Under the pieces are notes generated by a model, which had not been told where the DNA came from, did no database searches, and worked only from the letters and a program-made list of their open reading frames with translations. Below, piece by piece: positions 1,629 to 11,750 of a stretch of DNA of 37,744 nucleotides. Source of the DNA: Verrucomicrobiota bacterium (lineage in GTDB: Bacteria; Verrucomicrobiota; Verrucomicrobiia; Limisphaerales; Palsa-1400); contig JBEKAN010000003.1 in assembly GCA_050015895.1 (NCBI GenBank), positions 1-37,744 of the forward strand, written 5' to 3'. Made by a program: the position numbers and the translations under genes. Position 1 is the stretch's first letter. Each line of letters opens with the position of its first letter.

Positions 1629-2285
1629 ATGAGAACAAAATCAATCATTCTGTCGGCAATCGTCGGCGCGCTCAGCAGCGTGTCCCTGATGGCGCAAGTT
1701 TACTCCCTCAACGCGGTCGGTTACATCAATGTCACCTGCCCTTCGGGATTCTCGATCATCGCCAATCAGTTGGTCTCCTCCAACAACAACATCTCCCCGC
1801 TGCTGGATTCGCAGTTGCTTGATGGCGCTCACGACGGGGTGATCATCTTCAAGTACGAGGAAGGGAGCTTTGTGTCGTTTGTTGTCAACAGTTCCGCCGC
1901 TTGGTCATCCAGCAGCGTGACGAGCACCACGATGAATCCTGGCGAGGCTGTTTTCATCTACAATCCGTTAGGATCGAGTTTCAATCTCACCTTTGTCGGT
2001 CATGTGCCGCAAGGAAGCATTTGGGCCACCAATTCGCTGGTCCAGGGGTTCAACCTGATCAGTTCCATTGTCCCGCAATCCGCCGCGTTGGACACTGGCT
2101 TGGGATTGACGCCCACTGCGGGAGATATCGTCTTCCAGTTGGAAGAGGGCAGTTATGTGTCGGATGTCGTGAACTCCAGCCTTGGCTGGTCTTCGGGTTC
2201 CGCGCCCGTGCCTCCGGTCGGATCTGGATTTTTCTACTACAGCGTCACTGGTGAGAACTGGGTGAACAACTTTTCAGTCAACTAA
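1629..2285 (+). CDS. Secreted Ser-rich hypothetical protein with two internal repeat domains
   Basis: Signal peptide (MRTKSIILSAIVGALSSVSLMA-Q), then VYSLNAVGYINV. Duplicated segments IFKYEEGSFVSFVVNSS..WS and VFQLEEGSYVSDVVNSS..WS. Confidence 0.85.
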   Translation: MRTKSIILSAIVGALSSVSLMAQVYSLNAVGYINVTCPSGFSIIANQLVSSNNNISPLLDSQLLDGAHDGVIIFKYEEGSFVSFVVNSSAAWSSSSVTSTTMNPGEAVFIYNPLGSSFNLTFVGHVPQGSIWATNSLVQGFNLISSIVPQSAALDTGLGLTPTAGDIVFQLEEGSYVSDVVNSSLGWSSGSAPVPPVGSGFFYYSVTGENWVNNFSVN

Positions 2286-2318
2286 CCAAAAAGTTAATTC
2301 AGCATCAATACTAACTAT

Positions 2319-3122
2319 ATGAAAAAAATTGCCATCGTTGGATTGTTGTCATTGTGCGCGGCGGGAGTTTACGCCCAAGGCACGCTGATTTTCTATAACA
2401 ACTTTAGCGACCTTGACTTCCAAATCTATCAGCCCAATCCGAGCAGCCCGGCTGTGCAGCAGGTGGGCGACACCTCGGACCAGGGCACCATCAGCGGCGT
2501 CTCCGGCCCCTACACAACGTACGGTGGGATAGCGATTGGCGGCGCATTGGATCCGTCGCCTTCGACGAGTCTGACGCCCGCGTCATACACGTACGGCAAC
2601 GACTTTACGGCGCAAATTTTTGCGATGTCCGCCGGGAACGCCACTGTGTCTGGTGGATTGCCAATTCCGGCCTTTACCGCCTTGTCGCCGGTCACTCAGT
2701 ATATCGAGCAATTTGCCACCACTTCTGGCGGGGGTGCGAATCTCAACTCGGTGGCCATTCCAGGGGATCCTGGTATTCCAGGCACTGGTTATAGCGGCTC
2801 GGGCCATGGAGCCAACAGCCTTCTCAACAATGCGTTTATCGCCGTTGCGGCATGGTACAATGCGGGTGGCACCATCAACAGTTTGAGTGCGGCACAGACT
2901 GCCAATGTTCCTTGGGGCACATCGGACGTCGCCCTTTTGCAGGGATTGGGTGAGCCTGCCAGCGTGATGACGTCTGACGTTGGCCACATCACTCCTCCAA
3001 CGGTACCGACAGTGCCGTACGGGATTACGAGCTTCAGTTTGATCTCGGTTCCTGAACCGAGCACGATTGCTCTGGGCCTGATGGGCGTTTGCGGGTTCCT
3101 GGCTCGTCGCCGCAAGGCATAA
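2319..3122 (+). CDS. PEP-CTERM sorting domain protein
   Basis: Signal peptide. C-terminal VPEPSTIALGLMGVCGFLARRRKA fits the PEP + TM + basic tail pattern. Confidence 0.95.
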   Translation: MKKIAIVGLLSLCAAGVYAQGTLIFYNNFSDLDFQIYQPNPSSPAVQQVGDTSDQGTISGVSGPYTTYGGIAIGGALDPSPSTSLTPASYTYGNDFTAQIFAMSAGNATVSGGLPIPAFTALSPVTQYIEQFATTSGGGANLNSVAIPGDPGIPGTGYSGSGHGANSLLNNAFIAVAAWYNAGGTINSLSAAQTANVPWGTSDVALLQGLGEPASVMTSDVGHITPPTVPTVPYGITSFSLISVPEPSTIALGLMGVCGFLARRRKA

Positions 3123-3224: not shown

Positions 3225-3299
3225 GGCGCGTTCGTCTATCAGTTAGGACACGGCCCTCTCAAGGCTGAAAGACGGGTGCGATTCCCGTACGCGCTACCA
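3225..3299 (+). tRNA. tRNA-Glu (anticodon CTC)
   Basis: Acceptor GGCGCGT/ACGCGCT plus ACCA end. Anticodon arm CGGCC-CT-CTC-AA-GGCTG. T arm ACGGG-TGCGATT-CCCGT. Confidence 0.93.
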
Positions 3300-3331: not shown

Positions 3332-3419
3332 TTGCCGCAAAAGAACGCAGGGAACGCAAAAGATCAACATCATTTCCCTCTGCGTTCTTTGTGTTCTTTT
3401 GCGGCAATCTTCTTTTTTT
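3332..3419. repeat. Long palindromic element with 9-nt periodic arms, followed by a T-run
   Basis: Arms 3332-3361 (TTGCCGCAAAAGAACGCAGGGAACGCAAAA) and 3378-3407 are reverse complements at 25/30 positions. T-rich tail at 3408-3419. Confidence 0.85.
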
Positions 3420-3457: not shown

Positions 3458-5770
3458 GTGAACGGCAAAAATAACTCCTCAAAGGTCCTGGTCTCCCTGG
3501 CTCTGGCGCTGGGCACGGCCTTTCTCTACGCGCCCGTCCTGGGCTTTGATTTTGTCAACTACGACGACCCGTTGTATGTGATCAACAATTTCCATATCCG
3601 GTCCCTCAACCACCAGTTCCTGGTCTGGTGCTTTCAACCCGGGTACGCCTTCATGTGGCATCCGCTGACGTGGATGTCGCACGCGCTGGATTTTCAGTTC
3701 TACGGGATTCTCCACCCCGGCGGGCACCACGCCACGAGCCTGGCGCTGCACATCCTGAATTCGATTCTGCTTTTCCTGCTTCTGAACCGGATGACCAAGG
3801 CCCTGTGGCGCAGCGCCATCGTGGCGGCGCTCTTCGCCTGGCACCCGCTCCACGTCGAGTCCGTGGCTTGGATTTCCGAGCGCAAGGACGTGTTGAGCGC
3901 CTTCTTTTGGATGCTGACAATCTGGGCCTACATCCGTTACGTGGAGGAAAACACCAAGAAAAACCACGGCTTCCCTCGCGGATCAGCCGGATCATCTTCT
4001 CCCAATCCTAATCCTAATCTTAATCCTAATCTTAATCCTAATCCTAATCCTAATCCTAATCCCTCTTCATCCGTGCCATCCGTGAAATCCGTTCGCACAC
4101 TTGGTGCGCCTCCTGATATTGTGCTGACTGTAAAATCCGGTTCTTCCGCGGCTTTTTACATTCTGGCTCTGCTGTTTTTCGCGCTGGGGTTGATGGCCAA
4201 ACCGATGGTCGTCACGCTGCCGTTCGTTCTGCTGCTGCTGGATTGGTGGCCGTTGCGGCGGATCAATCCCGGTGGGGCGGGACCCTGTCCAGCCCCATTG
4301 AATCCGGAGGAAATAAAGAGTCACGGCTCGACAGAGTCTCGCCCTACCGGGGTTGTTGCAACCGTGCTGCGGTTGTTGGCTGAGAAAATCCCGTTCTTTG
4401 GTTTCTCCGTCATTGCAAGTTTTGTCACGCTTGGGGCCGCCAGCCGGACGATCCTGCCGCTGGCCAGCTTTTCACTCGTCTCGCGTCTCACCACCGCCGT
4501 CGTGATGTACTGGCGCTACATCCAGAAGATGATCTGGCCGCAAAACATGGTAGTTGCCTATCCTTTTGATTACCCCTACTCCGGACAGGAGGTGCTGACG
4601 GCGGGGGTGTTTGTCATCGTAGTTTCCGTAATCGCCATCCGTCTCTGGAAAAAGCGGCCGTTCTGGCTGACGGGGTGGTTTTCGTACCTCGGCATATTGG
4701 TTCCTGTGATCGGCCTGGTGCAGGTGGGGGCGCAGCCGATGGCGGACCGCTACACCTACCTCTCTTCCATCGGGATTTTCCTGATTGTCTGCTGGGAGGG
4801 TTGGGATATTGCCAGGGACTGGCGGCATGGACGGGCGATCGCCGGGGTGGCGGCGGCGGCGGCGCTGTGGGTTTGTTGTCTGTTGAGCGGGCGCCAGCTT
4901 CAGTACTGGAGAAACCCCTACACCCTCCACCAGCACAGCATTGCCGTGATGCCCAACAGTGTGATTGCCCATACCGATTATGCCGCCTTTCTCCGGGACG
5001 ACCTTCACTTGGAGGCGGCCCGCGCGGAATGCGAGAAGGCCATTCATCTTGACCCGAATTTTGCCTTTGCGCACCAGGTCCTGGGCGGGGTTCTTCTCCT
5101 GGAAGGGAAATTGGAACAGGCGGACGTGGAACTGCGGAAAGCACTGAGTCTTGACCCAAGAAGATTGGATGTTCATGCGGACTTGGGGCAGGTGGCGCTG
5201 GCCCGCAATGCACCTGTCGAGGCCGCCGCGCAATATGGCGCCGTGCTGGCGGCCGAGCCATCCAACCCGCAGGCCCGCGTGGGCCTGGGCCAGGCGCTGG
5301 CCATGCAAGGCAGGCTGGATGACGCGCGCGCCCAGCTTGTGGAGGCGTTGCGGCTCACGCCCCAATATCCGGAGGCCCACCATCAATTGGCGGTGGTCCT
5401 TGCCCTGCAGCATCACACCCCGGAGGCGGTGTCGGAATATCGGAAGGCCCTGAAACTGCACCCGGACCGCGCCGACACCTTGAATAATCTGGCGTGGATC
5501 CTGGCCACGGATCCCAGGCCGGAAAATCGCGACGGCGTGGAGGCGGTGAATCTCGCCTTCCGCGCCTGCGTGTTGACCCACGACCAACAGCCGATGATGA
5601 TCGGAACCCTGGCCGCGGCCTACGCCGAGGCCGGGAGTTTTGACGACGCGGTCGCGGCGGCGCAGCGCGCGCATGATCTGGCCGTGGAGCAGGGGAAGCA
5701 GGCGTTGGCGGCCAAAAACCTCGATTTGCTGGCGCTCTACCGCGCCCATCGCGCCTACCATGAGCAATAA
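3458..5770 (+). CDS. TMTC-like membrane glycosyltransferase (GT-C fold, putative protein O-mannosyltransferase) with C-terminal TPRs
   Basis: First-loop NYDD, WHPLHVESVAWISERKDVL, MADRYTY, many TM helices, and TPR repeats ending in LNNLAWILAT. Confidence 0.85.
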   Translation: MNGKNNSSKVLVSLALALGTAFLYAPVLGFDFVNYDDPLYVINNFHIRSLNHQFLVWCFQPGYAFMWHPLTWMSHALDFQFYGILHPGGHHATSLALHILNSILLFLLLNRMTKALWRSAIVAALFAWHPLHVESVAWISERKDVLSAFFWMLTIWAYIRYVEENTKKNHGFPRGSAGSSSPNPNPNLNPNLNPNPNPNPNPSSSVPSVKSVRTLGAPPDIVLTVKSGSSAAFYILALLFFALGLMAKPMVVTLPFVLLLLDWWPLRRINPGGAGPCPAPLNPEEIKSHGSTESRPTGVVATVLRLLAEKIPFFGFSVIASFVTLGAASRTILPLASFSLVSRLTTAVVMYWRYIQKMIWPQNMVVAYPFDYPYSGQEVLTAGVFVIVVSVIAIRLWKKRPFWLTGWFSYLGILVPVIGLVQVGAQPMADRYTYLSSIGIFLIVCWEGWDIARDWRHGRAIAGVAAAAALWVCCLLSGRQLQYWRNPYTLHQHSIAVMPNSVIAHTDYAAFLRDDLHLEAARAECEKAIHLDPNFAFAHQVLGGVLLLEGKLEQADVELRKALSLDPRRLDVHADLGQVALARNAPVEAAAQYGAVLAAEPSNPQARVGLGQALAMQGRLDDARAQLVEALRLTPQYPEAHHQLAVVLALQHHTPEAVSEYRKALKLHPDRADTLNNLAWILATDPRPENRDGVEAVNLAFRACVLTHDQQPMMIGTLAAAYAEAGSFDDAVAAAQRAHDLAVEQGKQALAAKNLDLLALYRAHRAYHEQ
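4004..4063 (+). repeat. In-frame hexamer array (AATCYT) x10 encoding NPNPNLNPNLNPNPNPNPNP
   Basis: Ten consecutive AATCCT/AATCTT units, the last AATCCC. Nested between a degenerate CACGG-type left arm (3963-3993) and (ATCCGTGnn)x3 at 4069-4093. Confidence 0.95.
4271..4348. repeat. In-frame REPIN-like inverted pair of GTAG-type REPs
   Basis: GGTGGGGCGGGACCCTGTCCAGCC (4271-4294) matches the reverse complement of 4325-4348 (GGTAGGGCGAGACTCTGTCGAGCC) at 20/24 positions. Confidence 0.75.
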
Positions 5771-5773
5771 TTC

Positions 5774-5933
5774 TTCTTTTCCTAATCTTAATCCTAATCT
5801 TAATCCTCTCTGCTCCACATGAACCGCCTCTTCGACCATGAAAAGCTGGAAGTTTATCAAGAATCCCTGGCTTTCGTTGCCTGGCTCGAACCGCTGACAC
5901 ATTCGGATTAAGATTAGGATCAGAAGGAAAAGA
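5774..5933. mobile_element. Putative non-autonomous element: inverted (AATCYT)n arrays around a four-helix-bundle gene fragment
   Basis: Left end: TCTTTTCCT plus four AATCYT units (5784-5807). Right end: CGGATT AAGATT AGGATC, then AGGAAAAGA in reverse-complement orientation. Fills the whole spacer between the two TMTC-like genes. Confidence 0.6.
5819..5911 (+). pseudogene. Truncated four-helix-bundle protein (23S rRNA IVS-protein-like) N-terminus
   Basis: Translates MNRLFDHEKLEVYQESLAFVAWLEPLTHSD*. F-x-x-E-K-L-x-V-Y-Q is the characteristic start of this family. The stop falls inside the right-hand repeat array. Too short for the ORF track. Confidence 0.75.
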
Positions 5934-5939
5934 CTTATA

Positions 5940-8159
5940 GTGAACCAAAAAGCTCGCACATGGCTGATTTGTCTGGCGCTGGCGACTGGCACGGCGCTTC
6001 TGTACGCGCCAGTGCTCCATTTCAGTTATGTGGCGCTGGACGACCAACTCTACTTCGACAATCATATTCTTCAGGGCTTCAGTTGGGCGGGACTGCGCTG
6101 GTGCTTCGCAACGACCCTCGGCAGCATGTGGCATCCCTTGACCTGGGTGTCGCACATGCTGGATTTCCAGTTCTTCGGCGCGCTGTTCGGGGGGCATCAT
6201 GCCACGAACGTGGCGCTGCACATTTTGAGCTCGGTAATGCTCTTTCTGCTGCTGCGCCGGATGACGGGGGCGATGTGGCGCAGCGCGATGGTGGCGGCCC
6301 TTTTCGCCTGGCATCCCCTGCATGTGGAGTCCGTCGCGTGGCTGGCGGAGCGCAAGGACGGGTTGAGCGCCTTCTTTTGGATGCTGACAATCTGGGCCTA
6401 CATCCGTTACGTGGAGGAAAACACCAAGAACATCCACGGATTACACCGATCATCTTCTCCTAATCCTAATCCGTCTTCATCCGTGCCATCCGTGAAATCC
6501 GTTCGCACCCTGGGTGCGCCTCCTGATATTGTGCTGGATGTAAAATCCGGTTCTTCCGCCGCTTTTTACATCCTGGCTCTGCTCTTTTTCGCGCTGGGCT
6601 TGATGGCCAAGCCGGTGCTGGTGACGATGCCGTTTGTTCTGCTGCTTTTGGATTGGTGGCCGCTGGGGCGGATGAGGGGAATGCAGAGCGATGAATGGAG
6701 AATGCAGAATGCGAATCGAGGAAGGGAGGGAAGCGATGCGGTTCCGTTTTGGGGGTTGGTGAGGGAGAAGATTCCGTTTTGCTTGCTGTCCATCGTTTTC
6801 TCCGTTCTGACGCTGGCTGCGTCCGCCCGGAACGCGGCGCCCCTGGCCATGCTTCCGCTCACGCTGCGCCTGGGCAATTGCGCGGTCAGCTATTTTCTTT
6901 ATGTGGCAAAGACGGTTTGGCCTGAAAACATGGTGGTGCTGTATCCCTTTGTGCCCCAATGGCCCGCGTGGCGGATCGGGGCGGCCAGCCTGTTTGTCGT
7001 CGTCGTCTCCGCGACGGCCCTGCGCCTGTGGAGGTCCCGGCCTTATTTCCTTCTGGGCTGGCTTTGGTATTTGGGGATTCTCGTCCCGGTCATCGGTTTG
7101 GTGCAAGTGGGCGTTGAACACATGGCAGACCGGTACAGCTATATCCCGTCCATCGGCTTGTTTGTCATATTTTGTTGGGGCGCTTCTGATCTTCTCGGCG
7201 GCTGGCGTCATGGAAAAATGATCTTGGGAGGGTTGGCTTGGGCGGTGCTGCTGGGCTGCGCCCTGGTTGCCGAAAACCAGCTCCAATACTGGAGAAACAG
7301 CGACACGCTTTTCATCCACAATCTGGAGGTGGCCCCGAACAGTTATGTGGCCCACGCCGCTTACGCGGCGTACTTCTATAACAACAGGCAAGTGGAAAAG
7401 GCCGCGGCCGAAAGTCAGAAAAGCATCCTCATCAAACCCGGCTACCCGTTTAGTCATACCGTGCTGGGCGAGTGCCTGTTGCAGCAAGGCAAGCCGGACC
7501 AGGCGGCCGCGCAATTCCAGATCGCACTCCAGGCCCAGCCCGCGGCGGAGGACGCCCGGCTCGGTTATGGGAACGCCCTGCTGGTCCAGAACTTGCCCGC
7601 CCAAGCCGCGCGACAATTCACCACCGTGCTTGCCGCCAACCCGGACAATCCGGAGGCGCATTTCTTGATGGGCCAGGCGTTGCTGAAACAGGGAGACTTG
7701 AGCGGGGCGCGCGCCCAATACAGCAAGGCGATGAGTCTGGTGAAACGCTACTCGGACGCGCAATTCCAACTGGCGGTGGTCCTGGCCAGGCAGGGGAACA
7801 TCCAGGAAGCCGTGAAGAATTATCGCGCGGCCAAGAGCGTGCCGCAGGGCGTGGAGGATTTCCTGGTGTTGAACAATCTGGCGTGGATCCTGGCGGCCAG
7901 TCCCCTTCCCGAATACCGGGACGGCTCGAAGGCGGTCGAACTGGCCACGCGCGCCCGCGACCTGGACCACTCGCGGCATCCGCTGGTCATTGGGACGCTG
8001 GCCGCCGCGTACGCCGAAGCGGGGCGATTTGACGAGGCGGTGGCCGCGGCGCGGCAGGCGCATGATCTGGCGCTGGCGCAGGGGGACCAGACAGTGGCGG
8101 CGCGCAACCTGGCCCTGCTGGAAATCTATCGTTCCCACCACGCCTACCATGAAAGGTGA
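5940..8159 (+). CDS. TMTC-like membrane glycosyltransferase with C-terminal TPRs (paralogue 2)
   Basis: LDD loop, WHPLHVESVAWLAERKD, MADRYSY and TPRs. Collinear with 3458-5770. Confidence 0.85.
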   Translation: MNQKARTWLICLALATGTALLYAPVLHFSYVALDDQLYFDNHILQGFSWAGLRWCFATTLGSMWHPLTWVSHMLDFQFFGALFGGHHATNVALHILSSVMLFLLLRRMTGAMWRSAMVAALFAWHPLHVESVAWLAERKDGLSAFFWMLTIWAYIRYVEENTKNIHGLHRSSSPNPNPSSSVPSVKSVRTLGAPPDIVLDVKSGSSAAFYILALLFFALGLMAKPVLVTMPFVLLLLDWWPLGRMRGMQSDEWRMQNANRGREGSDAVPFWGLVREKIPFCLLSIVFSVLTLAASARNAAPLAMLPLTLRLGNCAVSYFLYVAKTVWPENMVVLYPFVPQWPAWRIGAASLFVVVVSATALRLWRSRPYFLLGWLWYLGILVPVIGLVQVGVEHMADRYSYIPSIGLFVIFCWGASDLLGGWRHGKMILGGLAWAVLLGCALVAENQLQYWRNSDTLFIHNLEVAPNSYVAHAAYAAYFYNNRQVEKAAAESQKSILIKPGYPFSHTVLGECLLQQGKPDQAAAQFQIALQAQPAAEDARLGYGNALLVQNLPAQAARQFTTVLAANPDNPEAHFLMGQALLKQGDLSGARAQYSKAMSLVKRYSDAQFQLAVVLARQGNIQEAVKNYRAAKSVPQGVEDFLVLNNLAWILAASPLPEYRDGSKAVELATRARDLDHSRHPLVIGTLAAAYAEAGRFDEAVAAARQAHDLALAQGDQTVAARNLALLEIYRSHHAYHER
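6679..6713 (+). repeat. In-frame heptamer array (GAATGCA-type) x5
   Basis: gaatgca gagcgat gaatgga gaatgca gaatgcg, in the loop after DWWPL. Confidence 0.7.
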
Positions 8160-11033: not shown

Positions 11034-11171
11034 ATTGATTCCGACTTGGAGAATTTCATTTTGGTGGGAGATTTTGCTTGCGCCTGCCCCCAAACATATT
11101 AGAATAAATGACGAGTTGAATTAGCTCGTTTGTCCTTTGTCCTGACGAAAATCAAAGAAAGGATGCCGAAT

Positions 11172-11750
11172 ATGAAGGCGAAATTGAACTTCTCGTGTTT
11201 TGCCCTGGTGGCCGCCGTCGGATTGGCCGCGGGCAGCCTCCAGGCCCAAGTCTCCGCCACAGGGACGATTTCGGGCGCGCTGGTGGGCGGCCTTTATGAT
11301 TACACCTTGATCGTCAACAACACAGGTTCCGTTCCCATTGAGGGTTTTTGGTATGGCTGGACCGGCAGCGGCAACAACCTGCCATCGGACCCAAGCAGCT
11401 TCGCCTCCGCTTCCGGCTGGTCGGCTTCGTTATTTTTCGGCACTTCCATCCAATTCCAAGGCAACGCCGGGGACGCGATCCCGGTGGGTGGCTCGGGAAC
11501 GTTCACGTTCGACAGCACTTCTGATCCGACGGCCATGACCACACCACCGGTTGGCGAATCTGTCGTTTACGCCGGCACGATAGGTTTCAGCGTGGGTGAG
11601 CCGTCGAGCGAGCAGTTTGATCCGACCCTGTCGGCCGTCCCCGAACCTTCCACTTTCGGACTGGTCATTGCCGGTTCGCTTGGTTTGCTGGCTCGCTGGA
11701 AAGGAACCGCGTTTGGGGCGAAAAAAGCAGCCGCGGCGGCGGGCGGCTGA
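11172..11750 (+). CDS. PEP-CTERM sorting domain protein
   Basis: Signal peptide, Ser/Thr/Gly-rich body, and VPEPSTFGLVIAGSLGLLARWK. AAAGGA RBS upstream of ATG 11172. Confidence 0.92.
   Translation: MKAKLNFSCFALVAAVGLAAGSLQAQVSATGTISGALVGGLYDYTLIVNNTGSVPIEGFWYGWTGSGNNLPSDPSSFASASGWSASLFFGTSIQFQGNAGDAIPVGGSGTFTFDSTSDPTAMTTPPVGESVVYAGTIGFSVGEPSSEQFDPTLSAVPEPSTFGLVIAGSLGLLARWKGTAFGAKKAAAAAGG

What the first reader, a model, noticed from the sequence alone, without database searches (positions are those of the whole stretch)
3961..6750. Different repeat elements inserted in frame into the same two loops of tandem TMTC paralogues
Seen, loop 1 (after AYIRYVEE): both genes carry a CACGGAT/ATCCGTG 9-mer inverted element with an AATCYT array nested inside, 10 units in gene 1 and 2 in gene 2. 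Seen, loop 2 (after DWWPL): gene 1 has a GTAG-type REPIN (4271-4348, giving HGSTESRPT), while gene 2 has an unrelated GAATGCA heptamer array (6679-6713, giving MQSDEWRMQNA). All inserts keep the frame. Inference: these loops are landing pads for at least four repeat families, so DNA repeats are being turned into protein sequence. This may be neutral tolerance or a route to diversifying a surface-glycosylation enzyme.
Basis: partly seen in the sequence, partly recalled or inferred. Interest (0 to 1): 0.78.

Follow-up and report, generated by a model that had tools for sequence, protein, structure and literature searches.

The report
Genome repeats translated inside glycosyltransferase loops
Two neighbouring membrane glycosyltransferase genes of a peat-bog Verrucomicrobiota bacterium carry in-frame copies of the genome's own scattered DNA repeats in two floppy, probably cytoplasmic loops, a rich new example of the known habit of selfish repeats settling inside protein-coding genes.

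Summary
The repeats are at the stated places. TRF finds 10.5 and 2.5 AATCYT hexamer units, 2.8 ATCCGTG nonamer units in each gene, and a weak 3.6-unit GAATGCA array in gene 2. Gene 1 also holds a 31-nt-arm inverted doublet with a GTAG tag. Both ORFs stay open.

The hosts are GT-C fold glycosyltransferases with C-terminal TPRs, so they share the TMTC architecture, but the DUF1736 model did not match. They belong to an 18-gene paralogue family in a Verrucomicrobiota MAG.

Hexamers, nonamers, the doublet and two further hairpin modules are dispersed and mostly intergenic. The loop DNA is therefore repeat DNA read as protein.

- The shared loop-1 insert is one event spread by gene conversion. Same-genus orthologues lack it.
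- The heptamer loop of gene 2 is the common state of the paralogues, not a private insert. The doublet of gene 1 is shared with orthologues.
- Both loops are inferred to be cytoplasmic and are modelled as disordered, so tolerance is more likely than surface diversification.

Independent landings do exist: a sister species carries a different REP in loop 1.

In-frame intragenic REPs are already described, including in Verrucomicrobia. I rate this a new member of a known kind, of moderate interest.

The parts
3458..5770 (+). Gene 1: GT-C fold membrane glycosyltransferase domain (about residues 1-485) plus C-terminal TPR domain
   Evidence: The ORF is and the TPR families. AlphaFold2 gives mean pLDDT 86.7. 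The N-terminal model matches solved GT-C enzymes at Z 17-20. The PMT_2 match at 3737-3958 (19.7 bits, below the cut-off) stops where the loop-1 insert begins.
5940..8159 (+). Gene 2: tandem paralogue with the same architecture
   Evidence: ORF, TPR families. Its membrane domain is 57% identical in protein to that of gene 1.
3959..4150 (+). Loop-1 composite insert of gene 1: degenerate CACGG/CGGAT left arm, hexamer array, nonamer array, small hairpin and tail. It encodes about NHGFPRGSAGSSSPNPNPNL...SVPSVKSVRTLGAPPDIVLTVKSG.
   Evidence: The 7 same-genus relatives printed do not have this insert. pLDDT is below 50 over most of residues 175-224. All its parts have dispersed copies.
4000..4062 (+). 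AATCYT hexamer array, 10.5 units, read as PNPNLNPNLNPNPNPNPNP
   Evidence: TRF. Genome-wide, 51 of 61 arrays of 3 or more units are intergenic and this is the only one in a paralogue.
4068..4092 (+). ATCCGTG nonamer array (2.8 units), the right arm of the inverted element
   Evidence: TRF. Of 19 such doublets in the genome, 15 are intergenic, 3 lie in paralogues and 1 in another gene. Intergenic palindromic copies on C51, C456, C422 and C120 are shown.
4094..4131 (+). Small hairpin TCGCAC...GTGCGC and its tail, part of the same dispersed element
   Evidence: The stem at 4094-4098 / 4104-4108 comes. There are 6 loci in the genome: 4 intergenic plus genes 1 and 2.
4264..4355 (+). Loop-2 inverted doublet of gene 1 (REPIN-like, GTAG-tagged). 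The left arm has diverged (GTGG) and the right arm is canonical. It encodes ...GGAGPCPAPLNPEEIKSHGSTESRPT...
   Evidence: Arms, fold. The right arm has 60 loci in the genome, 47 of them intergenic. The geometry matches 7 genomic inverted pairs with 27-28 nt between the cores. pLDDT is below 50 at residues 273-294.
6429..6550 (+). Loop-1 composite insert of gene 2: the same element with 2.5 hexamer units
   Evidence: It differs from the gene 1 copy by in-frame indels of 12 and 48 nt.
6679..6716 (+). Degenerate GAATGCA-type heptamer array in loop 2 of gene 2, read as MQSDEWRMQNA
   Evidence: TRF finds 6693-6716 (3.6 units, score 34). It is homologous to the heptamer arrays in loop 2 of 13 of 18 paralogues. 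One orthologue has a perfect 4-unit GAATGCA array at the same place.
3878..4250 (+). Gene-conversion-like tract of gene 1; its partner in gene 2 is 6348-6660
   Evidence: Identity is 80/81 and 170/187 inside the tract, against 68.4% and 62.2% in the flanks (windowed view).
5780..5920 (.). Intergenic pair of inverted hexamer arrays (5780-5807 and 5905-5920) around a 30-codon mini-ORF. This is the natural intergenic form of the hexamer repeat.
   Evidence: Six further inverted hexamer-array pairs in the genome are listed.

Best explanation
The two genes are tandem paralogues of a GT-C fold glycosyltransferase with a C-terminal TPR domain. They share the architecture of eukaryotic TMTC proteins and belong to a strongly expanded family in this Verrucomicrobiota lineage.

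Two loops of the membrane domain, TM4-TM5 and TM6-TM7, vary widely in length, are modelled as disordered, and are inferred to be cytoplasmic. Of the ten inter-helix loops, seven are almost fixed in length and one more (TM7/TM8) varies moderately. The genome's own dispersed repeats have entered these two loops and are translated. The repeats are AT-rich minisatellites with 6-, 7- and 9-nt units, a GTAG-tagged inverted doublet, and small GC-rich hairpin modules.

What we see is what selection let through: inserts whose length keeps the frame and that are read in a stop-free frame. Three processes act after an insert is tolerated:
- Slippage changes the number of units: 10.5 against 2.5 hexamers.
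- Further elements nest into the existing ones.
- Gene conversion between paralogues copies the insert. This is how genes 1 and 2 came to share the loop-1 element.

The inserts are most likely neutral or nearly neutral passengers, not a device for changing enzyme specificity.

Shown here: the repeats, their dispersal, the open frames, the absence of the loop-1 insert from orthologues, the conversion tract, and the fold. Inferred: the cytoplasmic location, the neutrality, and the mechanism of insertion.
For: Repeats and frames.

Dispersal in the same genome, using my crude gene calls (3058 genes, 78% coding):
- Hexamer arrays: 51 of 61 intergenic.
- Nonamer doublets: 15 of 19 intergenic.
- Doublet core with up to 3 mismatches: 37 of 45 intergenic.
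- Module A: 16 of 24 intergenic. Module B: 11 of 14 intergenic.
- Summed density per Mb: 430 in the paralogues, 4.1 deep inside other called genes, 160 in uncalled DNA.

These are DNA elements, not protein motifs:
- Module B stands in loop 1 of one paralogue and in loop 2 of another, 49 of 60 columns identical, and is read in different frames: RDWNNRTNCAIRRGR against EIGTTDGHCATGAGGE.
- The doublet arm is read as HGSTESRPT in gene 1, ARRSLALPT in a VWA protein and GRARLSRAV in a helicase.

Insertion rather than descent for loop 1:
- The 7 same-genus relatives of genes 1 and 2 that I printed have a short loop (EECKMQNAKRKKFY type, an AATGCAA heptamer array) or a different insert.
- PMT_2 matches short-looped paralogues above the cut-off, but in gene 1 it stops at 3958.

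Independent landings:
- A sister genome has its own REP in loop 1, with 23 copies there, 13 in another relative, 0 here and 0 for the control.
- A 30-nt copy of module A sits inside the loop-2 element of another orthologue, 25 of 30 identical.

Gene conversion.

Tolerant loops:
- Across 26 homologues, loop 1 is 2-69 residues and loop 2 is 18-55, while EL1 is 55-57, TM3/4 is 16 and TM9/10 is 12.
- The long runs of pLDDT below 50 lie in these two loops.

Cytoplasmic side:
- Net charge is +2.2 and +2.7, against -3.0 for the first outer loop.
- Counting helices gives 11 TM segments.
- Passages I read in Eisenhaber et al. 2021 (PMC7801869) give TMTC 11 TM segments, luminal TPRs and an over-long cytoplasmic TM6-TM7 loop.

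Same habit elsewhere in this genome: heptamer arrays or the doublet arm lie inside RecG, a DinG-like helicase, a class I tRNA synthetase and thiamine-phosphate synthase.

Precedent: passages I read in Di Nocera et al. 2013 (PMC3733652) report intragenic GTAG REPs, most numerous in the verrucomicrobium Opitutus terrae.
Against: - Copies in paralogues and orthologues are not independent. The 100-fold density excess over other coding DNA therefore overstates the number of insertion events. Much of loop 2 is explained by one old heptamer array and one old doublet passed on by descent.
- Exact GAATGCA doublets are absent from the genome (0 hits), and GAATTTA-type doublets are nearly confined to the paralogues (8 of 9). 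For that family the intergenic source is only a related class.
- No Y1 transposase gene in this 84%-complete assembly is flanked by the doublet, so the means of movement is unknown. A single arm is not a palindrome (z 0.18).
- The cytoplasmic placement is inferred. I had no model coordinates and no topology predictor.
- Neutrality is assumed, not tested. All hexamer arrays seen in these loops are read in the same N-P/N-L frame. That could reflect selection, an insertion bias or shared descent.
- The gene calls are my own crude caller, so the label 'intergenic' includes some missed genes.
- Assembly through repeats in a 545-contig MAG cannot be fully verified. The public contigs stop inside the repeats.
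Confidence: 0.72

Rival explanations
1. Phase variation. The non-triplet heptamer arrays in the ORFs act as slippage switches. They would turn individual members of a large glycosyltransferase family on and off, as simple-sequence contingency loci do in some pathogens (that comparison is recalled, not from a call).
For: - Period-7 arrays lie inside most paralogues (13 of 18).
- Two orthologues have perfect 4-unit arrays, GAATGCA x4 and AATGCAA x4.
- The hosts are a multi-copy glycosyltransferase family.
- The hexamer array length clearly changes: 10.5 against 2.5 units inside a tract that is otherwise more than 90% identical.
Against: - In this genome the arrays are degenerate. At most two identical units are adjacent and there are 0 exact GAATGCA doublets.
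- The 6- and 9-nt units keep the frame.
- 17 of 18 paralogues are in frame. The one broken gene is broken by a 26-nt tandem duplication in a transmembrane segment, not at an array.
- No insertion or deletion appeared in the laid contigs of four runs. Contigs do drop rare variants, so this is weak evidence.
Confidence: 0.07
2. The inserts are kept for a function. They could serve as flexible cytoplasmic linkers or docking segments. At the RNA level, the hairpins inside the mRNA could tune translation or decay of individual paralogues.
For: - The loop-2 doublet has been kept in orthologues of several species and remains foldable.
- Hexamers are always read in the hydrophilic N-P/N-L frame.
- The repeat density in these genes exceeds even the intergenic density: 430 against 160 per Mb.
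Against: - Loop content differs between close paralogues and between species. It ranges from no insert to 69 residues, with no conserved peptide.
- The left arm of the doublet in gene 1 has decayed and has no other copy.
- A sister species shows only a decayed trace of it.
- The same modules are read in different frames.
Confidence: 0.12
3. Ordinary descent only. The loops are low-complexity protein segments inherited from the family ancestor, and the likeness to intergenic repeats is coincidental.
For: The heptamer loop of gene 2 is shared by most paralogues. The doublet of gene 1 is shared by orthologues.
Against: - Matches of 100% over 28-31 nt to tens of intergenic loci.
- The loop-1 insert is absent from the same-genus orthologues.
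- A species-specific REP sits in the same loop.
- Modules are read in different frames.
- A module is nested inside another element.
Confidence: 0.04
4. Assembly artefact. The contig was joined wrongly through repeats, which would create apparent in-frame inserts and a false conversion tract.
For: The assembly is a fragmented MAG of 545 contigs. Public contigs break at 3992-4072, 4323-4345 and 5777-5806, and none bridges a repeat.
Against: - Both ORFs align end to end with orthologues from independently assembled genomes. Gene 1 is 72% identical to its best orthologue, which carries the same loop-2 element at the same place.
- Both flanks of the doublet are reproduced without a difference in three runs.
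- The frame is kept across every junction.
Confidence: 0.03

Closest known systems
Rickettsia palindromic elements (RPEs) in protein-coding genes
   Same: Dispersed palindromic repeats inserted in frame into unrelated genes, adding a peptide segment that the protein tolerates. I read passages of the 2024 MITE review (PMC10969869), which summarises the original reports. I did not read the original papers.
   Different: RPEs are about 150 bp, and each family is reported to encode a conserved peptide. Here the elements are shorter (about 30-90 nt), belong to at least six families including 6-, 7- and 9-nt minisatellites, are nested, and are read in different frames. They are also concentrated in two homologous loops of one paralogue family.
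Intragenic GTAG/CGTC REPs (Di Nocera et al. 2013, PMC3733652)
   Same: GTAG-tagged repeats inside ORFs, often as dimers encoding 20-30 residues. They are most numerous in Opitutus terrae, which belongs to the same phylum, and some carry GTGG in place of GTAG, as the left arm does here. Helicases and tRNA synthetases are among the hosts, as in this genome. The paper also notes different REPs at about the same site of recB in two Xanthomonas species.
   Different: In the passages I read, that paper does not mention glycosyltransferase/TPR hosts or translated minisatellites. A single arm here is not itself a palindrome.
REPIN / RAYT system
   Same: Inverted doublets of a GTAG-tagged unit at a fixed spacing, tens of copies per genome, mostly intergenic. 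The family is present in 16 of 31 genomes of the taxonomic family.
   Different: No RAYT flanked by this repeat was found. The six Y1_Tnp genes have other flanking repeats or none. The definition of the REPIN concept is recalled, not read here.
Eukaryotic TMTC1-4 O-mannosyltransferases
   Same: An N-terminal GT-C membrane domain followed by TPRs, and 11 predicted TM segments. The TM6-TM7 cytoplasmic loop is unusually long in TMTCs too (PMC7801869).
   Different: No DUF1736 match in 0 of 26 homologues at E up to 1. Only a weak or sub-threshold PMT_2 match. The donor, the acceptor and even the activity are unknown.
Simple-sequence contingency loci in bacterial glycosyltransferase genes
   Same: Tandem repeats of a non-triplet unit inside glycosyltransferase ORFs of a multi-gene family.
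   Different: The arrays here are short and degenerate, and no frameshifted allele lies at an array. This comparison is recalled, not read.

Membership tests
GT-C glycosyltransferase fold | A multi-pass membrane domain that superposes on solved GT-C enzymes | tested here: met
   The N-terminal model (residues 1-490, pLDDT 81.6) matches STT3 at Z 20.2 (329 aligned, rmsd 4.7), Pmt2 at Z 19.9 (351 aligned), Pmt4 at Z 19.4 and ArnT at Z 17.0. Nearly all of the 50 entries listed are GT-C enzymes; four are GPI-transamidase chains. Foldseek E-values are weak (1.7e-3 or worse), but the top 31 rows are all GT-C enzymes. A sequence profile finds no solved chain at E up to 10.
GT-C glycosyltransferase fold | A conserved acidic residue in the first extracytoplasmic loop | tested here: met
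   D37, in the NYDD motif just after TM1, is invariant in 26 of 26 aligned homologues. Its catalytic role is inferred from recalled knowledge of the family.
Pfam PMT_2 (PF13231) | A match above the gathering score | tested here: inconclusive
   Gene 1 scores 19.7 bits (cut-off 26.1) over profile positions 28-98, and the match ends at 3958 where the insert starts. Gene 2 is not listed. Seven paralogue loci with shorter loop 1 pass at 26.7-36.8 bits. 5 of 26 relatives match, best E 4.3e-9.
TMTC family | A GT-C membrane domain followed by a C-terminal TPR domain | tested here: met
   TPR families match at residues 540-760. The GT-C fold covers residues 1-490.
TMTC family | The DUF1736 loop (PF08409) | tested here: not met
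   No PF08409 match in 0 of 26 homologues at E up to 1. The whole-genome search found nothing, but its controls found nothing either, so it adds no information.
REP / REPIN (GTAG type) | A terminal GTAG tag | tested here: met
   The right arm ends ...CGCCCTACC on the + strand, which is GGTAGGGCG on the other strand. The left arm has GGTGGGGCG.
REP / REPIN (GTAG type) | Many dispersed, mainly intergenic copies, often as inverted pairs at a fixed distance | tested here: met
   There are 45 cores with up to 3 mismatches, 37 in uncalled DNA. They form 7 inverted pairs with 27-28 nt between the cores, plus 31 singles. The reversed-pattern control gives 0.
REP / REPIN (GTAG type) | Each unit is itself an imperfect palindrome | tested here: not met
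   The single right arm (41 nt) folds at -3.5 kcal/mol, z 0.18, and 102 of 200 shuffles fold as well. Only the doublet folds well.
REP / REPIN (GTAG type) | A cognate RAYT (Y1 transposase) gene flanked by the same repeat | tested here: inconclusive
   There are six Y1_Tnp matches, and none has this core with up to 4 mismatches on its contig. The assembly is 84% complete and fragmented.
In-frame intragenic repeat insertion (RPE-like) | The insert is absent from orthologues whose flanks align, the frame is kept, and the element has copies elsewhere | tested here: met
   For loop 1 of genes 1 and 2: for the absence and the flanks, for the frame, and for the copies.
Contingency (phase-variable) locus | A long perfect tract of a non-triplet unit in the ORF, with length variants in the population | tested here: not met
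   At most two identical heptamers are adjacent in this genome. No indel appeared in the contigs of four runs, which is a weak test.

The most novel reading that the evidence does not exclude
The loops may be true attractors. On this reading, the small hairpin modules and the inverted doublet integrate preferentially into existing AT-rich minisatellite arrays. Module B is flanked by GCAGAAA-type heptamer units on at least one side in 6 of the 7 intergenic loci shown, and on both sides in 4, as it is inside the loops. One module sits inside another element within a coding loop. Once a minisatellite is tolerated in a cytoplasmic loop, it would then recruit further families. Gene conversion would spread the nest through a family of about 18 genes. 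The result would be a standing route by which selfish repeat DNA becomes disordered protein sequence, possibly with heptamer slippage switching paralogues on and off.
Probability: 0.15. Interest if true: 0.65.

Novelty: new member of a known kind. Interest (0 to 1): 0.45.

Why it matters
This is an unusually dense natural case of repeat DNA being read as protein. At least six repeat families, some nested, occupy two homologous loops of one enzyme family across paralogues and species. It also shows array-length change and gene conversion caught in the act.

It could serve as a system for three questions: which protein sites tolerate selfish DNA, how such inserts spread among paralogues, and whether disordered loops arise this way.

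There is a practical point as well. The inserts break profile matches: PMT_2 stops at the insert. Annotation pipelines will therefore under-call these glycosyltransferases in repeat-rich Verrucomicrobiota.

Tried and rejected
- Pfam and NCBIfam on the two whole proteins gave only TPR families.
- A PDB sequence profile search of the whole protein and Foldseek with the whole model were swamped by TPR proteins. I therefore folded the N-terminal domain alone.
- The PDB profile search with the N-terminal alignment found nothing at E up to 10.
- The DUF1736 genome search was uninformative because its controls found nothing either.
- Laying public contigs did not bridge any repeat. No laid contig covered the hexamer array, and 6317-6478 was not covered by the listed pieces. 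This says nothing about array length or absence.
- A tblastn search for other copies of the 30-residue intergenic mini-ORF found only itself. My recalled idea that it is a truncated four-helix-bundle (23S rRNA intervening-sequence) protein is therefore untested.
- The first blastn of the modules failed because of query names and was repeated.
- I did not use the large protein-database searches, the protein atlas or complex prediction. The 31 related genomes answered the descent question.
- I considered that the inserts are spliced out or that the genes are split at them. I rejected this because the frames run through in 17 of 18 paralogues and in the 26 homologues aligned.
Full report
**Setting.** The window is a whole contig (C3) of a 545-contig, 4.69-Mb, 61% G+C assembly that is 84% complete. 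Named public relatives are Verrucomicrobiota MAGs. The stretch occurs in peat and wetland metagenomes. Two + strand ORFs lie in tandem: 3458..5770 (770 aa) and 5940..8159 (739 aa).

**The observation.**
- TRF finds a 6-nt array at 4000-4062 (10.5 units) in gene 1 and at 6458-6472 (2.5 units) in gene 2.
- It finds a 9-nt CATCCGTGA array (2.8 units) at 4068-4092 and at 6478-6502.
- It finds a weak 7-nt GAATGCA array (3.6 units, score 34) at 6693-6716.
- The inverted nonamer arms are clear in gene 2 and degenerate in gene 1.
- Loop 2 of gene 1 holds a 31-nt-arm inverted doublet at 4264-4294 / 4325-4355. It is 84% complementary and folds at -25.7 kcal/mol, z -4.68.
- The heptamer array of gene 2 is not above chance on its own.
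- Both frames stay open.

**The host genes.**
- Pfam and NCBIfam see only the C-terminal TPRs.
- An AlphaFold2 model built with 26 homologues has mean pLDDT 86.7.
- The N-terminal domain folded alone matches solved GT-C glycosyltransferases: STT3 at Z 20.2, Pmt2 at 19.9, Pmt4 at 19.4 and ArnT at 17.0. Nearly all of the 50 entries listed are GT-C enzymes; four are GPI-transamidase chains.
- PMT_2 matches short-looped paralogues above its cut-off. In gene 1 it reaches only 19.7 bits and stops at 3958, exactly where the loop-1 insert starts.
- DUF1736, the Pfam mark of TMTC proteins, is not found in any of 26 homologues.
- I therefore call the genes GT-C/TPR glycosyltransferases with TMTC-like architecture, not TMTC members.
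- The family is large. This genome has 18 genes at 39-57% identity, one of them broken. 17 of 18 other genomes of the same taxonomic family have matches, 6 to 55 per genome.

**The loops are repeat DNA.** I wrote a crude codon-usage gene caller (3058 genes, 78% of the bases) and classified every copy of each repeat.

| Repeat | Copies | In uncalled (intergenic) DNA |
|---|---|---|
| Hexamer arrays, 3 or more units | 61 | 51 |
| Nonamer doublets | 19 | 15 |
| Doublet core, up to 3 mismatches | 45 | 37 |
| Right arm of the doublet (blastn) | 60 loci | 47 |
| Hairpin and tail of loop 1 | 6 loci | 4 (the other 2 are genes 1 and 2) |

- The doublet core forms 7 inverted pairs with 27-28 nt between the cores.
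- Hexamer arrays normally occur as inverted pairs in intergenic DNA. One such pair lies between the two genes.
- The genome is rich in short tandem arrays: 2731 TRF rows, with AATCCT the commonest AT-rich unit.

**Paralogues widen the picture**.
- Loop 2 of 13 of 18 paralogues is a heptamer array of the type GAATTTA GAATTTA GAATGCA GAATGGG GAAAGCA. So the heptamer loop of gene 2 is inherited.
- Six paralogues carry one or both of two further modules in loop 1: module A (read as ASAFAKATADR) and module B (read as RDWNNRTNCAIRRGR). Two carry module A in loop 2, and one carries module B in loop 2.
- These modules are dispersed. Module A has 22 blastn loci, 14 intergenic. Module B has 15, 11 intergenic.
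- Module B in loop 2 of one paralogue is 49/60 identical to the loop-1 copy of another and is read in another frame.
- Summed over six families, repeat density per Mb is 430 in the paralogues, 4.1 deep inside other called genes and 160 in uncalled DNA. The paralogue copies are not independent events.

**Descent or insertion.**
- In the same genus, the relatives of genes 1 and 2 have a short loop 1 made of AATGCAA heptamers (EECKMQNAKRKKFY). None has the hexamer/nonamer element. That element is therefore a gain in this lineage.
- Genes 1 and 2 share it inside a tract that is 80/81 and 170/187 identical, while the flanks are 68% and 62% identical. The two copies differ by in-frame indels of 12 and 48 nt.
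- Since the duplication is older than the genus, this is one insertion copied by gene conversion, followed by array slippage.
- The loop-2 doublet of gene 1 is old. Orthologues in other species have HGSTESRPT-type sequence at the same place. It is variously joined by hexamers, by a perfect GAATGCA x4 array, or by a 30-nt copy of module A nested inside the element (25/30 identical).
- A sister species that lacks this repeat family (0 copies) still shows a decayed trace of it in loop 2 (my reading of the printed DNA). That species carries its own REP in loop 1. That REP has 23 copies there, 0 here and 0 for the control.
- So both descent and repeated independent landing are real.

**Why these loops.**
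- Across 26 homologues, loop 1 spans 2-69 residues and loop 2 spans 18-55. The other loops are nearly fixed in length.
- The long runs of pLDDT below 50 lie in these two loops.
- Helix counting gives 11 TM segments, with loops 1 and 2 between TM4-5 and TM6-7.
- Their net charge is +2.2 and +2.7, against -3.0 for the first outer loop.
- The published TMTC topology has 11 TM segments, luminal TPRs and a long cytoplasmic TM6-TM7 loop (PMC7801869, passages read).
- I infer that both loops are cytoplasmic and away from the active side. This makes surface or specificity diversification unlikely.

**Known precedent.**
- Di Nocera et al. 2013 (PMC3733652, passages read) describe GTAG REPs inside ORFs. 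They are most numerous in Opitutus terrae, often occur as dimers encoding 20-30 residues, and sit in helicases and tRNA synthetases.
- This genome likewise has repeats inside RecG, a DinG-like helicase, a class I tRNA synthetase and thiamine-phosphate synthase.
- Rickettsia RPEs are the classic case (PMC10969869, passages read).
- A full-text search for Verrucomicrobia + tandem repeats + intragenic + glycosyltransferase returned 0 papers.
- The supplement listing REP host genes could not be opened.

**Caveats.** The gene calls are crude. Public contigs do not bridge the repeats. No cognate transposase was found. Loop topology and neutrality are inferred.

**Verdict.** It is wrong in three details: one event plus conversion rather than two landings, inherited heptamers, and cytoplasmic rather than surface loops. 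I rate it a new member of a known kind.

Noticed in passing
window 3225-3299 and 3333-3412: A tRNA-Glu (CTC) gene lies just upstream of gene 1. It is followed by an inverted pair of another dispersed repeat (core GTTCTTTTGCGGCAA), which has 61 copies with up to 2 mismatches on 47 contigs.
   Followed up: partly
window 5771-5939: The spacer between the two genes holds a 30-codon mini-ORF (MNRLFDHEKLEVYQESLAFVAWLEPLTHSD) framed by inverted hexamer arrays. From memory it resembles the start of a four-helix-bundle (23S rRNA intervening-sequence) protein. tblastn found no other copy in the genome.
   Followed up: partly
G000 contig C365, about 2190-2260 (- strand): A third paralogue with a related loop-1 insert (NNHGSHGLPGWNPPNLNPNLNPSLSVPS) is split into two ORFs by a 26-nt tandem duplication inside transmembrane segment 5. 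This is either a real pseudogene or an assembly error.
   Followed up: partly
G000 contigs C143, C462, C78, C56, C200 (loci L047-L052): Repeats lie in frame deep inside housekeeping genes. Heptamer arrays sit in RecG (residues 409-418), a class I tRNA synthetase (689-700) and thiamine-phosphate synthase (115-126). The doublet arm sits in a DinG-like helicase (475-482) and a VWA protein (234-242).
   Followed up: partly
window 1629-3122 and 11130-11750: Several small secreted proteins end in PEP-CTERM-like sorting tails (VPEPST...RRRKA) next to the glycosyltransferase pair. The TPR part of both genes scores best, though below the cut-off, against the PEP-CTERM system TPR protein PrsT. A link between this enzyme family and PEP-CTERM proteins was not tested.
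   Followed up: no
G000 contigs C488 and C310 (loci L042, L043): Two short Y1 transposase genes are flanked by their own repeats. One has an inverted pair with a GTAG-tagged core. The other has tandem arrays of a roughly 60-nt unit on both sides. Both differ from the repeat in gene 1.
   Followed up: partly
locus L030 (G005), loop 2 of the gene 1 orthologue: Besides hexamers, the doublet and module A, this orthologue carries a further insert of about 45 residues (THEPSPHPDPLPSHRMGAEREQPAGLGGEEGTRPAAATGSGEQ...) of unknown origin in the same loop.
   Followed up: no
G000 intergenic loci on C253, C20, C22, C261 and C232: In intergenic DNA, module B is flanked by GCAGAAA-type heptamer units on at least one side in 6 of the 7 loci shown, and on both sides in 4. 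These could be element ends, a duplicated target, or a preferred landing array.
   Followed up: partly
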